Positions 34,211 to 38,371 of a stretch of DNA of 38,395 nucleotides are shown here, piece by piece; positions within the stretch are counted from its first letter, which is position 1, and each line of letters opens with the position of its first letter. The notes below the pieces were generated by a model that saw nothing but the letters and a program-made list of their open reading frames with translations, was not told the origin of the DNA and did not search any database. This DNA is from an uncultured Ruaniaceae bacterium. Its GTDB lineage: Bacteria > Actinomycetota > Actinomycetes > Actinomycetales > Beutenbergiaceae. A program made the translations under genes and the position numbers. The DNA lies in assembly GCA_938004115.1 (NCBI GenBank), contig CALKWS010000046.1:1-38395 (forward strand). Direction: 5' to 3'.

Positions 34211-34243
34211 GGCGCTACCGCTCGGGTGCGCCAGAATGATGCC

Positions 34244-35389
34244 GTGACCACCGCAGTGACCGACCGCGCCGCCCTGGCCGACACCACCAGGGCGCGGCGC
34301 GTGGTCGTCAAGATCGGGTCCTCCTCGCTGACCGATACCGGCGGGCGACTCGATGTGCACAAACTCAACGCACTGGTGGAGGTGCTGGCCGCCCGGCGTG
34401 CCGGCGGGGGACAGGTGGTGCTGGTCTCCTCCGGTGCGATCGCCTCGGCACTGGGGGTGCTGGGCCTGAGCGCCCGGCCCCAGGATCTGGCCACCGCCCA
34501 GGCCGCCGCCAGCGTCGGTCAGGGCCTGCTGATGGCCCACTACACCCGCGCCTTCGGCGCCCACGACATCACCGTGGGTCAGGTGCTGCTCACCGTGGAG
34601 GACGTGATCCGCCGGGCCCACCACCGCAACGTGCAGCGCAACCTGGAGCGTCTGCTCGCCCTCGGTGTGCTGCCGATCGTCAACGAGAACGACGCGGTCG
34701 CCACCCAGGAGATCAAGTTCGGCGACAACGACCGGCTCGCCGCCCTGGTGTCCCACCTGACCAAGGCCGACGCGCTGGTGCTGCTCACCGACGTCGATGC
34801 CCTGTACGACCGCTCCCCGCGGCATCCGGACGCCCGGAGGATCGCCCGCGTCGACAGCCAGCAGGATCTGCAGGGGATCGAGGTGACCGCCCGCAGCACC
34901 GGGGTGGGCACCGGCGGGATGGTCTCCAAGCTCGACTCCGCCGCGATCGCCTCCGGCGCGGGTATCCCGGTGGTGGTGACCTCCGCGGAGAACGCCGGGG
35001 CCGTCCTGGCCGGCGCCGACGTGGGCACCTGGTTCGAGCCCGCCGCCCGGCGGGTCAGCGCACGCAGGTTGTGGCTCGCTCACGCCGCCCACACCAGCGG
35101 GGCGGTCCAGGTGGACGACGGGGCGGTCCGCGCCATCACCGTGGGCAAGAAGTCGCTCCTCGCAGCCGGTGTGACCAGCGTCTCCGGGGAATTCGACGCC
35201 GGCGAACCGATCGACGTGCTCGACCCGGGCGGACGGGTGGTGGCCCGCGGCCTGGCGGCCTACAGCGCGGAGGAACTACCCGAACGGCTGGGCCGGACCT
35301 CGGCGGAACTGCGGCGGCAGTTCGGTCCGGACAGCGCGCGTGCGGTGGTCCACCGCGACGACCTGGTGGTCCTGCACCACGACCGCTGA
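34244..35389 (+). CDS. proB: Glutamate 5-kinase with PUA domain
   Basis: VVVKIGSSSLT, VSSGAI, NENDAV, FGDNDRL, GTGGMVSK, C-terminal VVHRDDL. Confidence 0.96.
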   Translation: MTTAVTDRAALADTTRARRVVVKIGSSSLTDTGGRLDVHKLNALVEVLAARRAGGGQVVLVSSGAIASALGVLGLSARPQDLATAQAAASVGQGLLMAHYTRAFGAHDITVGQVLLTVEDVIRRAHHRNVQRNLERLLALGVLPIVNENDAVATQEIKFGDNDRLAALVSHLTKADALVLLTDVDALYDRSPRHPDARRIARVDSQQDLQGIEVTARSTGVGTGGMVSKLDSAAIASGAGIPVVVTSAENAGAVLAGADVGTWFEPAARRVSARRLWLAHAAHTSGAVQVDDGAVRAITVGKKSLLAAGVTSVSGEFDAGEPIDVLDPGGRVVARGLAAYSAEELPERLGRTSAELRRQFGPDSARAVVHRDDLVVLHHDR

Positions 35390-35405: not shown

Positions 35406-35437
35406 CTCGGTGACCTGCGATCTCGGTGACCTGCGAT
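35406..35437. repeat. Perfect 16-bp tandem duplication
   Basis: CTCGGTGACCTGCGAT twice, just after the proB stop. Confidence 0.85.
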
Positions 35438-35500: not shown

Positions 35501-35530
35501 TTGACTTCGCCTCGGCGGCACCCATAACCT
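35501..35530 (+). promoter_or_regulatory. Sigma70-type promoter driving the riboswitch leader
   Basis: TTGACT-N18-TAACCT; the predicted start (about 35537) coincides with the 5' edge of the aptamer. Confidence 0.75.
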
Positions 35531-35537
35531 CATAGTC

Positions 35538-35645
35538 GGTCCAGAGCGTCAGCGCCAAGCCCCGGCTCGCTGACCGGCAACCCCCGCGCAGTGGGGTGCC
35601 CCGGGAAACGACCAGGCCCCGGCCAACCGGCCGGCGGCAAGCGCA
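35538..35645 (+). ncRNA. SAM-IV riboswitch aptamer (SAM-I clan)
   Basis: P1 GGTC/GACC; GAG-CGTCAGC..AAGC-CCCG-GCTC-GCTGAC (P2); GGCAACCCC..GGGGTGCC (P3); P2-loop CCCG can pair with CGGG; P4 CCGGCC/GGCCGG; 3' GCAAGCGC can pair with the P3 loop GCGC. Matches the actinobacterial SAM-IV pattern as I recall it. Confidence 0.88.
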
Positions 35646-35687
35646 TCACCGCCCACGCGGTGCCAACCAGAAGGACAAGACACACTG

Positions 35688-35774
35688 ATGAACACCACCA
35701 GGACCCCTGCGTACCAGCGACGCGTCGTCTCCTGTGTGATGTGTTCCATGTGTTGCTGCTCCATGTCGGCCTGA
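35688..35774 (+). CDS. Cys/Met-rich 28-aa small ORF, putative attenuator leader peptide
   Basis: MNTTRTPAYQRRVVSCVMCSMCCCSMSA*, upstream AGAAGGA. The last 14 codons contain 5 Cys, 3 Met and 4 Ser. Too short for the supplied ORF track. Confidence 0.72.
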   Translation: MNTTRTPAYQRRVVSCVMCSMCCCSMSA

Positions 35775-35931
35775 ACCGACACCTCGACCGGCAGCCTCGG
35801 CCCGACCGGGCCCCTTGGCGCCACCCCCCAGTTGCTCGGCGAGCACGCGGGTCCGGTGCGTGACACACCGGACGTGCCCCGCGGCTGGGGTCATGGAGTG
35901 ATTTCTTCTGTGCACGAAAGTGAGCACCGCT

Positions 35932-36930
35932 GTGACCGTCGTCCCCACCCCCCTGACCGCGCCCTTCTCCCTGATCGGCGTGGACCTGTCCAACGCCGGC
36001 GCCCCTCGTGAGTGGCAGCGCGAGCGAAACTCCGAGACCGAACAGTTCATCATGGGCCGGCTCGCCGGGTTGGCCTCCCTGGCCGACCGCGGCGGCGTGG
36101 ATCTCATCGCCCTGGATGAGACCTTCCGCCTGGGCGGGCACCGCCGCCGGGACGCCTGGCTGGACGGCGCCCTGGCCGCCTCCAGGCTCTCCCGGCACAC
36201 CACCCGCGCGGCCGTGGCCGCAGCGGTACCCCTGGCCACCGCCCGCCCCGAGCACGTCGCCGGAGCGATCGCCTCGGTCCACCGGGCGACCGGTCAGCGC
36301 GCCGGATGGCAGCTTCCCCTCGGAACCACCGCGCAGGGGGCCGGGGCCCGCAGCGTCGACGCCGTCCTGCGGGCCACCACGCTGAAGACCACCACCTCGC
36401 AGCGAAACGCCGCCACCCCCACCGTCCGGCCCGCGGTGGTGGTGCCGGTGCGCACGGGCGTGGACGCCGAGCTGGCCGCCGCCCGGGCCGACGTCGCGCG
36501 GATCTCGGTGGCAACGCTGGAGGAGGCCCGGGCCGCGCGCTCGGCGATCCGCGACGCCGCCGTCGAATGGGGCCGGGCCCCCGAGGACGTCAAGGTGCTG
36601 GTGGACGTTCACGCGGTGCTCTCCGCGGACCGTCCCAGTGCCCAGGCGCGATGGGACCTGCTGTCCTCCCTGGAGTTGCCCGAGGGACTACCGGCCCTGC
36701 GCGTGATCGGCACCGCCGGCGACCTTGCCACCCTGTGGAACGCCTGGGTGCAGGCCGGGGCCGCCGACGGGTTCACCGTGGTGCCGGCCTCGGTGCCCAC
36801 CGACGTGGCCGCCCTGGCCGGCGACCTCGTGCCCGCCCTCACCGACCTGGGACTACGTACCCCGCACACCCCGGCGGTCCCGGCCGCACGCGCGCGCAGC
36901 ACCCAGCGCACCGCTGCCGCCGCCCGGTGA
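35932..36930 (+). CDS. Shortened luciferase-like (LLM) flavin-dependent oxidoreductase, NtaA/SnaA/DszA-related
   Basis: [60 protein letters not shown] at 35932 follows GAAAGTGAG; 35920 is an alternative start. Confidence 0.78.
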
Positions 36931-37078: not shown

Positions 37079-38371
37079 ATGACCGAGACGACGGCGCAGT
37101 CCACCCAGGACGTATCCGCAGCAGTAACCGACGTGGCCCGGCGGGCGAAGGTCGCCGCGCGTTCCCTGGCCCGGGCCACCCGGGCCACCAAGGACGGCGC
37201 ACTGCACCGGATGGCGGACACACTGGTGGCCGCCAGCGAGCGCATCGTGACCGCCAACGCCCGCGACGTGGCCCGCGCCCAGGCGGACGGAATGAGCCCG
37301 GGACTGGTGGACCGGCTCACGCTGGACCCCGCCCGGATCGAACAGATCGCCGGCGCGCTGCGCGATCTGGCCGCGCTGCCGGACCCGGTGGGTGAGGTGC
37401 TGCACGGGTCCACGCTGCCCAACGGTCTGCGGGTGCGGCAGGTACGTGTGCCCATGGGTGTGGTGGGCATGATCTACGAGGCGCGCCCGAACGTGACGGT
37501 CGATGCCGCGGGCCTGGCCCTGAAGAGCGGGAACGCGGTGGTGCTGCGTGGAGGATCGGCCGCCGCGGACTCCAACCAGGAGATCGTGGCAGTGCTCGGG
37601 CAGGCGCTGCGGGACGTCGGTCTGCCCGCCGATCTGGTGCAGTCCATCGACGCCTACGGCCGCGCCGGCGCCCAGGCCCTGATGCGGGCCCGGGGCCTGG
37701 TAGACGTCCTGATCCCCAGGGGCGGGGCGGGCCTGATCCAGACCGTGGTGGCCCAGTCCACCGTGCCGGTGATCGAGACCGGGGTGGGGAACTGCCACCT
37801 GTACGTCGACGCCGCGGCCGACGTGGAGCAGGCCCTGGCGCTGCTGCTGAACTCCAAGACCCAACGGGTGGGGGTGTGCAACGCGGCCGAGACGCTGCTG
37901 GTGCACGCCGACATCGCCACCGGCTTCCTGCCTGCAGCGCTGCAGGCGCTGGGCGAGGCCGGCGTTCGGATCCACGGGGACGAACGCACCCAGGAACTGG
38001 CGCCCACGGGTGTGGCGGTGGCCGAGGCCACCGAGGAGGACTGGCACGCGGAGTACCTGAGCATGGACCTGGCGGTCCGGGTGGTCGCGGACCTGGACCA
38101 GGCGCTGGACCACATCCGTACCTACTCCTCCGGGCACACCGAGGCCATCTGCACCACCGACACTCGCAGTGTGCAACGGTTCACCGCGGAGGTGGACTCG
38201 GCGGCGGTGATGGTCAACGCCTCCACCCGGTTCACCGACGGCGGGCAGCTCGGCTTGGGAGCCGAGATCGGCATCTCGACCCAGAAGTTGCACGCCCGCG
38301 GACCGATGGGGCTGGCCGAACTGACCACCACCACCTGGATCGTGGAGGGTGACGGGCACATCCGCACCTGA
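37079..38371 (+). CDS. proA: Gamma-glutamyl phosphate reductase
   Basis: [68 protein letters not shown]. Confidence 0.97.

What the first reader, a model, noticed from the sequence alone, without database searches (positions are those of the whole stretch)
35501..36930. SAM-IV riboswitch in tandem with a Cys/Met-rich leader peptide: candidate two-tier sulfur-sensing leader
Seen: one promoter (TTGACT-N18-TAACCT) is followed in order by a SAM-IV-type aptamer (35538-35645), a 28-codon ORF ending SCVMCSMCCCSMSA (35688-35774), about 155 nt of structured spacer and an LLM monooxygenase-like gene. Three of the five Cys codons are TGT, which is disfavoured in a genome this GC-rich. Established: SAM-IV riboswitches control sulfur-metabolism genes in actinomycetes, and poly-Cys small ORFs act as cysteine-responsive attenuators in mycobacteria, where the described cases are leaderless. 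Inference: two sensor types are stacked on one mRNA. One reads the SAM pool. The other reads Cys-tRNA and, unusually, Met-tRNA charging through ribosome stalling. The gene would be expressed only when both are low. I do not recall this combination being characterised, but cannot search to confirm novelty.
Basis: partly seen in the sequence, partly recalled or inferred. Interest (0 to 1): 0.85.

Follow-up and report, generated by a model that had tools for sequence, protein, structure and literature searches.

The report
SAM riboswitch plus Cys/Met leader peptide
A SAM-IV riboswitch sequence is followed by a tiny cysteine- and methionine-rich reading frame and a folded RNA spacer, a layout kept in all 36 genomes of this bacterial family that were searched, and it likely lets one mRNA leader read two sulfur signals before a monooxygenase-like gene is expressed.

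Summary
Rfam gives SAM-IV at 35538-35649 (81 bits, cut-off 38). Promoter, aptamer, ribosome-binding site, a 25-34 codon ORF ending in Cys/Met codons and the same downstream gene recur in order in 36 of 36 family genomes (Beutenbergiaceae by named homologs) and in 9 genomes of three other families. The ORF behaves like a selected leader: the first ATG after the site is in frame in 36 of 36, and Cys and Met make up 13% and 11% of its codons. New here: the spacer is a covarying three-hairpin RNA without an Rfam match, and the gene is a shortened NtaA/CmoJ-like barrel that may be catalytically dead. The wiring is not shown: folding tests found no conserved masking of either ribosome-binding site, so 'both signals low' and a transcription-level readout stay inferences. 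Riboswitch-gated uORFs and poly-Cys attenuators are each published; I found no paper on this combination (the 2008 SAM-IV paper was not available). This scan has reported SAM-IV or SAM-I plus Cys uORF before, on other DNA and other genes. Verdict: new variant of a known kind.

The parts
35501..35506 (+). -35 hexamer TTGACT
   Evidence: TTGAC(A/T) in 37 of 37 orthologous loci
35525..35530 (+). -10 hexamer TAACCT, 18 nt after the -35; predicted start about 35536-35538
   Evidence: TANNNT at 17-18 nt spacing and 7-11 nt before aptamer P1 in 37 of 37 loci; start site not measured
35538..35649 (+). SAM-IV riboswitch aptamer (RF00634); P3 loop 3 nt shorter than consensus
   Evidence: 81.4 bits, E 3.6e-13; alignment; core motifs in 35 of 36 genomes
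35647..35662 (+). Short hairpin after the aptamer tail (called P6 here); does not overlap the PK-2 strand, unlike in direct SAM-IV leaders
   Evidence: predicted folds
35669..35675 (+). Shine-Dalgarno-like AGAAGGA of the uORF, 12 nt before ATG
   Evidence: SD-like motif 5-16 nt before the ATG in 36 of 36
35688..35774 (+). 28-codon uORF (leader peptide gene), stop TGA
   Evidence: conserved in 36 of 36 family genomes
35733..35765 (+). Cys/Met codon tract (5 Cys, 3 Met) next to the stop: predicted stalling sensor
35764..35781 (+). Hairpin H1 with the uORF stop codon in its loop
   Evidence: 78% of cells paired, little covariation
35790..35822 (+). Bulged hairpin H2
   Evidence: outer helix 4 of 6 pairs with two-sided changes
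35826..35890 (+). Long hairpin H3 with conserved 7-nt loop (35859-35865, N-GUGACA)
   Evidence: base helix 4 of 6 and apical helix 6 of 8 pairs with two-sided changes; model R1
35916..35924 (+). Predicted ribosome-binding site of the downstream gene
35932..36930 (+). 332-aa shortened NtaA/DszA/CmoJ-like LLM barrel, the regulated gene; possibly non-catalytic
34226..35389 (+). Context: proB (glutamate 5-kinase) upstream
   Evidence: TIGR01027
37079..38371 (+). Context: proA downstream, 148 nt after the LLM stop; possibly reached by the same transcript
   Evidence: NF001221; proA follows the gene in 26 of 36 family loci

Best explanation
This is one leader with a SAM-IV aptamer, an SD-led Cys/Met-rich uORF and a conserved three-hairpin spacer, and it likely works as a two-step sulfur gate: bound SAM would stop expression early, and a ribosome that runs through the Cys/Met codons would let the transcript be shut down in the spacer, whereas a ribosome stalled there for lack of charged Cys- or Met-tRNA would keep it going. 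The downstream gene would then be made mainly when SAM and Cys/Met supply are both low. Shown: the parts, their order, their conservation, the coding signature of the uORF and the covarying spacer. Inferred: SAM binding, translation and stalling, the AND logic. The readout is most likely at the level of transcription (Rho-dependent termination on the C-rich RNA after the stop, with H3 as a pause hairpin), chosen because masking of ribosome-binding sites found no family-wide support; this step is the weakest. My odds: uORF is a Cys/Met-responsive attenuator 0.8; aptamer active in this genome 0.85; AND logic given both 0.7; transcriptional readout 0.55.
For: Aptamer: 81.4 bits; the letters at the pocket positions named in PMC6890682 (passages) match the Rfam consensus; core motifs in 35 of 36 genomes. 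One promoter directly before P1 in 37 of 37 loci and no -10 element before the uORF in 36 of 36. uORF start lies 30-53 nt after the aptamer tail, where the regulated gene starts in direct leaders (37-58 nt, 18 leaders). ATGs in that zone: 41 in frame, 2 out; first ATG after the SD in frame in 36 of 36. Cys 130 and Met 109 of 994 codons, 232 of the 239 within 14 codons of the stop, while the N-terminal part drifts; genome background 0.74% and 1.6%. Both Cys codons are used interchangeably in the MCC motif (12, 8 and 1). Frame relative to the gene is random (10/13/13), so no fusion. Spacer: 84.6% of cells paired against 32-43% when slid, 17 of 33 pairs with two-sided changes on an unfitted alignment of 20 leaders; the model also finds 7 leaders of an untrained genus and one outside the family. 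First 70 nt after the stop have C/G above 1.5 in 24 of 36 against 7.7% of random genome windows. No U-tract terminator on the + strand. Rho termination is reported as dominant in M. tuberculosis (bioRxiv 2022.06.01.494293, one passage) and was proposed for actinobacterial cys leaders (PMC1262725, passages). Nearest solved relatives of the gene include the organosulfur enzymes YtnJ/CmoJ, BdsA and DmoA.
Against: No conserved switch was found. SAM step: the uORF's ribosome-binding site is predicted open whether or not PK-2 is engaged (0 of 36 changed by more than 1 kcal/mol, against 10 of 18 direct leaders); freeing the P6 3' strand closed it in 11 and opened it in 8 of 36. Stalling step: the H3 base is predicted at 0.88-0.99 in this genome wherever the ribosome is placed. 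The C-rich signal is compared with whole-genome windows, mostly coding, and much of it lies inside hairpin H2. The spacer is strongly folded, which suits a Rho site poorly (own knowledge). The closest relative G001 keeps the uORF but has a decayed aptamer (49.5 bits), so the two parts are not inseparable. No transcript ends, footprints or reporter data; the RNA-labelled runs are contigs only. Kin are not independent: the 36 genomes are 11 genera.
Confidence: 0.5

Rival explanations
1. Same two inputs, but the second step is translational as at Ms5788A: the free Cys/Met codons pair with the gene's ribosome-binding site and start codon, and a stalled ribosome frees them.
For: In this genome the best fold pairs 35747-35757 with 35923-35934, over the start codon; opening the site costs 10.7 kcal/mol free, 6.3 with a stalled ribosome, 7.5 +/- 1.6 with a shuffled uORF. 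A drop above 1 kcal/mol in 20 of 36. The high TGT share would fit a pairing constraint. This is the mechanism shown in bioRxiv 834739 (passages).
Against: Family-wide not above controls: 2 of 36 at p <= 0.05, mean z -0.30 against -0.51 for a coding window; real uORF above shuffled in 16, below in 20, Wilcoxon p 0.66; 10 of 36 against 6 of 36 for an early-codon control. The tests are crude for 70% GC RNA and cannot see pseudoknots.
Confidence: 0.2
2. OR logic: the SAM-bound fold is the one that lets the uORF be translated, complete translation shuts the gene off, and either no translation (low SAM) or stalling (low Cys/Met) turns it on, as with a leader whose full translation is the off signal (Salmonella mgtL, recalled).
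For: The uORF's site is open in the modelled SAM-bound state (median 3.5 kcal/mol); in some genera the P6 5' strand can pair with the aptamer's P3 loop (4 of 36 at p <= 0.05).
Against: Freeing the P6 3' strand does not consistently close the uORF site (11 up, 8 down of 36). In mycobacterial Cys attenuators loss of the uORF start increases attenuation (bioRxiv 834739, figure legend passage).
Confidence: 0.12
3. The small peptide is itself the product that the riboswitch controls (a thiol- or metal-binding partner of the downstream protein), as proposed for Rv1805A behind the Mbox; stalling plays little part.
For: It sits at the regulated-gene position; 25-34 aa is long for a pure attenuator; the downstream protein may lack a normal active site. 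PMC12810186 (abstract and discussion) proposes such a role for its uORF.
Against: Only the Cys/Met tail is conserved and its order varies (MCCC, CMCMC, MMMMRMC); versions of 7-8 codons occur behind other SAM-IV hits; the RNA around the stop is under structural selection.
Confidence: 0.08
4. Only cysteine is sensed; the Met codons are by-products of ATG-TGY repeat expansion or of RNA pairing, so the leader is a SAM-IV in front of an ordinary poly-Cys attenuator.
For: The tract is often a repeat of Met-Cys codons; 126 Cys/Met codons also appear in the +1 frame as a by-product.
Against: Every one of 36 leaders has at least one internal Met, 35 have two or more, and two have 6 Met with 2 Cys; related leaders before metY carry Met with one or no Cys.
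Confidence: 0.07
5. In this genome the aptamer is a decaying relic and only the uORF attenuator works.
For: Score 81 bits is below most of the 97 hits; P3 loop 3 nt short and one distal P3 pair broken; a congener's aptamer has decayed.
Against: All pocket letters, P1, PK-1 and P5 are intact; two other congeners share the short loop.
Confidence: 0.03

Closest known systems
SAM-IV riboswitch, Rfam RF00634 (structure PMC6890682, passages read; Weinberg 2008 not available)
   Same: Aptamer fold, pocket letters, PK-1, actinobacterial host, sulfur-related context; short hairpin after the tail.
   Different: The first ORF is a leader peptide, not the enzyme gene; the hairpin after the tail does not overlap PK-2 and no SD masking is predicted.
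Mycobacterial poly-Cys leaderless sORF attenuators, Ms5788A and others (bioRxiv 10.1101/834739; passages and one section read)
   Same: Cys codons clustered at the stop of a short uORF; long folded spacer; sulfur-linked target.
   Different: Those are leaderless and the word riboswitch does not occur in the main text; here the uORF is SD-led behind an aptamer, is as rich in Met as in Cys, and tract-SD pairing is not family-wide.
Streptomyces lividans metL before metNIQ (PMC8079986, passages read)
   Same: A 29-aa predicted leader ending in mixed Cys and Met codons; similar R-M-C ending to leaders seen.
   Different: Leaderless, no riboswitch, predicted only, described as Met/Thr-rich; the paper lists SAM-IV separately before a cysteine desulfurase.
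Riboswitch-controlled uORFs of M. tuberculosis: B12 switch with uPPE2 (PMC11260477, passages) and Mbox with rv1805A (PMC12810186, abstract and discussion)
   Same: The aptamer's first target is a small uORF in an actinobacterium; Rho is involved at the Mbox.
   Different: uPPE2 is a landing pad coupled by an AUGA overlap and Rv1805A has no known role; neither is an amino-acid sensor. Here a 157-nt folded spacer separates the ORFs.
NCBIfam leader-peptide models NF042934 (cis_reg_atten) and NF042936 (Ms4527A)
   Same: Curated actinobacterial Cys-type leader peptides; one NF042934 member lies directly behind a SAM-IV hit in locus L164.
   Different: The window's peptide hits no NCBIfam or Pfam model.
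NtaA/DmoA family monooxygenases (TIGR03860): YtnJ/CmoJ, BdsA, NtaA
   Same: Barrel fold, TM 0.65-0.70, and N- and C-terminal motifs.
   Different: About 100 aa shorter, 14-20% identity, far under the family cut-off, and the segment that I recall as the flavin-phosphate loop is replaced.

Membership tests
SAM-IV riboswitch (RF00634) | Score above the Rfam gathering threshold over the full model | tested here: met
   81.4 bits against 38, model 1-116
SAM-IV riboswitch (RF00634) | Helices P1, P2a, P2b, P3, P5 and pseudoknot PK-1 | tested here: met
   Read from the alignments; positions 24-28 can pair with 64-68; one distal P3 pair broken
SAM-IV riboswitch (RF00634) | Pocket nucleotides (2-4, 7-8, 63-65, 77 in the numbering of PMC6890682) | tested here: met
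   Identical to the Rfam consensus at those positions, read by eye; motif check
SAM-IV riboswitch (RF00634) | Pseudoknot PK-2 between the P3 loop and the 3' tail | tested here: inconclusive
   3-4 pairs possible, loop 3 nt short; no covariation count was obtained
SAM-IV riboswitch (RF00634) | Binds SAM and changes expression | not testable with these tools
   Needs probing and reporters
Poly-Cys leaderless sORF attenuators | Leaderless start at the transcript 5' end | tested here: not met
   Promoter lies 150 nt upstream; SD in 36 of 36; no -10 before the uORF in 36 of 36
Poly-Cys leaderless sORF attenuators | Two or more consecutive Cys codons | tested here: met
   CCC in this genome; many relatives have alternating Cys-Met instead
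Poly-Cys leaderless sORF attenuators | Cys tract pairs with the downstream SD (Ms5788A) | tested here: inconclusive
   Predicted in this genome, not above controls in the family
Poly-Cys leaderless sORF attenuators | Cysteine-responsive expression that needs the uORF | not testable with these tools
   Needs reporters
NCBIfam Cys-type leader peptides | Hit to a curated model | tested here: not met
   No family at E <= 1 or 10
Mycobacterial riboswitch-uORF modules (B12, Mbox) | Ligand-bound fold masks the uORF's SD | tested here: inconclusive
   Not predicted in 36 of 36; the model ignores pseudoknots and kinetics
Mycobacterial riboswitch-uORF modules (B12, Mbox) | Stop/start overlap coupling uORF and gene (uPPE2) | tested here: not met
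   Gap about 140-270 nt, random frame
NtaA/DmoA monooxygenase (TIGR03860) | Score above the curated cut-off | tested here: not met
   68.4 against 279.7 bits
NtaA/DmoA monooxygenase (TIGR03860) | Luciferase-like barrel fold | tested here: met
   Model pLDDT 90; Foldseek E about 1e-15 to 3SDO, 5TLC, 1TVL
NtaA/DmoA monooxygenase (TIGR03860) | Flavin-binding segments conserved | tested here: inconclusive
   Two internal segments deleted and the loop aligned to HAGQS reads VPVRT; which residues bind FMN is recalled, not taken from a call

The most novel reading that the evidence does not exclude
A modular two-input sulfur gate of actinobacteria: SAM-IV stacked on a ribosome sensor that reads Met-tRNA as well as Cys-tRNA, read out through an uncatalogued three-hairpin RNA, reused before at least four kinds of genes, and in this family guarding a flavin-less pseudo-monooxygenase that every member keeps.
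Probability: 0.4. Interest if true: 0.8.

Novelty: new variant of a known kind. Interest (0 to 1): 0.62.

Why it matters
It would be a natural two-input gate made of an aptamer and a ribosome-stalling sensor on one pathway, a type that the 2022 review of tandem riboswitches does not name (no hit for uORF, leader peptide or attenuat in its main text). It would give a testable case of methionine-codon attenuation, which an early survey did not find in actinobacteria (PMC1262725). It offers a handle on how SAM-IV regulates when no SD masking is apparent. It also marks an unannotated, universally kept protein of this family as a sulfur-starvation protein.

Tried and rejected
1) Tract-to-RBS pairing as the family mechanism: three tests, none above its control. 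2) SAM-dependent masking of the uORF SD through PK-2/P6: 0 of 36; through invasion of the P3 loop: no consistent sign. 3) Terminator/antiterminator switching of the H3 base: median probability rises from 0.5-0.75 to 0.92 once the stop region is covered, but fewer competitors alone would do that, and this genome shows no switch. 4) Local anti-SD hairpin after H3: real above shuffled in 8 of 29. 5) Alternative helix between the last codon plus stop and H2: 85% paired but no covariation; a second alternative was entered out of register and says nothing. 6) Partner for the H3 loop in the Cys codons or in P2: looked at by eye, no covariation seen. 7) RNAalifold on the whole spacer alignment found only two helices because the stems were misaligned; the z-score of the single sequence is -0.77. 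8) Rfam on the spacer: nothing meaningful. Model R1 occurs once in this genome and only in family members among 121 genomes; it misses the 7 divergent family leaders. 9) Expression: four RNA-labelled compost runs of one study, contigs only; cover is flat across proB, leader and proA and may be DNA. 10) A full-length NtaA partner: none above cut-off in this 94% complete genome, present in 12 of 36. 11) Four references were not frame-checked and are not used. 12) Literature searches without a paper on this combination. The 2008 SAM-IV paper is not held; no supplements were read, and those of the 2007, 2008 and 2010 motif papers and of bioRxiv 834739 could mention such uORFs.
Full report
OBSERVATION. 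The window reads, on the + strand between proB (34226-35389) and proA (37079-38371): TTGACT-N18-TAACCT (35501-35530), a SAM-IV match at 35538-35649 (81.4 bits, gathering 38, the only Rfam hit of the window), a short hairpin, AGAAGGA, a 28-codon ORF at 35688-35774, 157 nt of spacer and a 332-aa ORF from GTG 35932 to 36930. Eight of the last 14 codons of the small ORF are Cys or Met, the highest value among 62,714 stop-adjacent stretches of the genome. An independent contig shows no difference inside the leader. Named homologs of the large ORF (Beutenbergiaceae bacterium, Ruania, Occultella, Pseudactinotalea) place the organism in that family by inference.

CONSERVATION IN THE FAMILY. The large ORF has an ortholog in 36 of 36 family genomes and SAM-IV is found in all of them. 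I examined all 37 orthologous loci (one genome has two near-identical copies; the second was dropped from the statistics). A script found aptamer, SD and uORF in 36 loci; G001 was missed because its aptamer has decayed and was added by hand. The promoter geometry is the same in 37 of 37, 7-11 nt before helix P1, and no -10 element precedes the uORF, so it is leadered. In 16 of the 36 genomes this leader is the only SAM-IV hit. The uORFs are 25-34 codons. In the zone after the aptamer 41 ATGs are in frame with the Cys/Met tract and 2 are not; the first ATG after the SD is in frame in 36 of 36. Cys and Met are 130 and 109 of 994 codons, 232 of the 239 within 14 codons of the stop, against 0.74% and 1.6% in 1,897 long ORFs. 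TGT is 66 of 130 Cys codons against 14% in the genome. The N-terminal part drifts freely. The last codon and stop are nearly fixed: Ala-stop in 28, Arg-stop in 7, Gly-stop in 1. These genomes are 11 genera, not 36 independent trials.

BEYOND THE FAMILY. The protein matched 50 of 301 genomes of the order, 32 outside the family; I fetched 29 of those 32, two with the leader cut off by a contig end. Rfam finds SAM-IV upstream in 10. Nine of the ten, in three other families, have a uORF with Cys near the stop (seven found by script, two read by eye); one has the aptamer directly on the gene. Two have a Cys uORF and no aptamer. The parts are thus modular. Of the 59 SAM-IV hits that are not on this gene, all of which I looked at (one cut by a contig end), most sit directly on a gene such as O-acetylhomoserine sulfhydrylase or a cysteine desulfurase, and 7 have a short uORF with Cys or Met: three before metY-type genes, one NF042934 leader before a peptide-type binding protein, one before an SsuA-like protein and two before an ABC permease. 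The short ones are weak one by one.

THE SPACER. In 29 of the 36 genomes the spacer folds into three hairpins: H1 over the stop codon, a bulged H2 and a long H3 with a conserved 7-nt loop. On an unfitted alignment of 20 of them, 84.6% of cells pair against 32-43% when slid, and 17 of 33 pairs show two-sided changes; the structure was drawn from these same sequences, which favours it. A model built on them also finds the two closest left-out leaders, the 7 leaders of an untrained genus (17-31 bits, E 0.001-0.4) and one leader outside the family (30 bits). It has no Rfam match, occurs once in this genome and only in family members among 121 genomes. Seven divergent family members have a different, longer spacer.

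THE REGULATED GENE. The model (pLDDT 90) is a luciferase-like barrel nearest to NtaA, BdsA and YtnJ/CmoJ (TM 0.65-0.70, 17-20% identity). It is about 100 aa shorter, scores 68 against a cut-off of 280, and in the profile alignment two internal segments are missing and the loop that I recall as binding the flavin phosphate is replaced. In two genomes of another family a full-length NtaA/DmoA gene follows directly, which suggests descent from the short partner of a two-gene organosulfur monooxygenase; but this genome has no full-length member above cut-off, and only 12 of 36 do. proA follows in 26 of 36 loci. 'Monooxygenase' is therefore a fold, not a shown activity; a non-catalytic or rewired protein is at least as likely.

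MECHANISM. Anatomy and precedent point to ribosome-mediated attenuation behind a SAM switch. The uORF begins where the regulated gene begins in ordinary SAM-IV leaders. But the wiring did not come out of folding tests. In 10 of 18 direct leaders, engaging PK-2 closes the ribosome-binding site by more than 1 kcal/mol; in 0 of 36 uORF leaders does it. In this genome the best fold pairs the Cys/Met codons with the gene's start region and a stalled ribosome lowers the opening cost from 10.7 to 6.3 kcal/mol, as at Ms5788A; across the family the effect is not above shuffled controls. A switch of the H3 base, a local anti-SD hairpin and an invasion of the aptamer by P6 were not supported either. What remains positive is a C-rich stretch after the stop (24 of 36 above 1.5, against 7.7% of random windows, a lenient background), no U-tract terminator, and published reliance of mycobacteria on Rho. 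I therefore commit to a two-step gate that opens when SAM and charged Cys/Met-tRNA are both low and is read out mainly by premature termination, at 0.5, with translational masking (0.2) and OR logic (0.12) as the main rivals.

COMPARISON WITH WHAT IS KNOWN. What I saw of each paper: bioRxiv 834739, passages and one section (leaderless poly-Cys attenuators; riboswitch not mentioned in the main text); PMC8079986, passages (a predicted leaderless metL with mixed Cys/Met tail); PMC11260477, passages (B12 switch and uPPE2); PMC12810186, abstract, discussion and a term search with no hit for SAM-IV or cysteine; PMC9481103, term search only; PMC1262725, passages and one section; PMC6890682, passages; PMC1950547, PMC2864571, PMC3890552, PMC13096801, PMC13236596 and bioRxiv 2022.06.01.494293, passages. 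Nine full-text searches gave no paper describing a SAM riboswitch coupled to a Cys/Met leader peptide. The 2008 SAM-IV paper and most subscription papers are outside the library, and no supplements were read. The aptamer is a SAM-IV member; the uORF works like a poly-Cys attenuator but fails the leaderless criterion and matches no curated model.

EARLIER NOTES OF THIS SCAN. Seven AI notes describe SAM-IV or SAM-I with a Cys or Cys/Met uORF in other genomes and before other genes; none matches this sequence. They are not evidence, but my own loci show two of the layouts they describe (metY; peptide-type importer).

VERDICT. Real, conserved, and apparently not described in print as a combination; a new variant built from two known kinds of control. 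Specific to this locus are the equal weight of Met codons, the covarying spacer RNA and the degenerate target. Interest 0.62.

Noticed in passing
L099, L103, L108, L109, L115, L116, L121 (about 200 nt before the LLM-like gene; family f8): A different conserved, apparently structured leader with a promoter and no Rfam hit precedes the same gene in 7 of 10 fetched genomes of one family; possibly an uncatalogued RNA motif.
   Followed up: partly
L049 1112-1216 (G001): Closest relative: uORF almost identical, aptamer decayed to 49.5 bits with an altered binding core.
   Followed up: partly
L002 1501-1615 (G000 contig C160): The genome's second SAM-IV hit (78.6 bits) sits directly on an ORF with no Pfam hit; a similar one in L173.
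   Followed up: partly
L004 1440-1463 (-), L026 1654-1680, L028 1648-1671: 7-8 codon uORFs with an Arg-Met core between SAM-IV and metY-type genes.
   Followed up: partly
L090, L092, L093, L095, L096, L122: An Arg-Met-Cys motif with the rare CGA Arg codon recurs in the uORFs of two other families; it resembles the tail of S. lividans metL.
   Followed up: no
L110, L104, L112 (family f3, small genomes): No SAM-IV, but SD-led short ORFs with one or two Met codons near the stop appear before the same gene (read by eye).
   Followed up: no
L164: SAM-IV directly followed by an NF042934 leader peptide (34.7 bits, cut-off 27) and a C/U repeat tract before a peptide-type binding protein.
   Followed up: partly
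L051, L058, L059: Three SAM-IV aptamers carry a 12-16 nt insertion in the P2 internal loop.
   Followed up: no
L066, L082, L065: The LLM-like gene is split in two matches in G003 and G005 and has an internal stop in the match in G029, while the leader is intact; assembly error or decay not told apart.
   Followed up: no
window 35406-35437: Two exact head-to-tail copies of 16 nt just after the proB stop.
   Followed up: no
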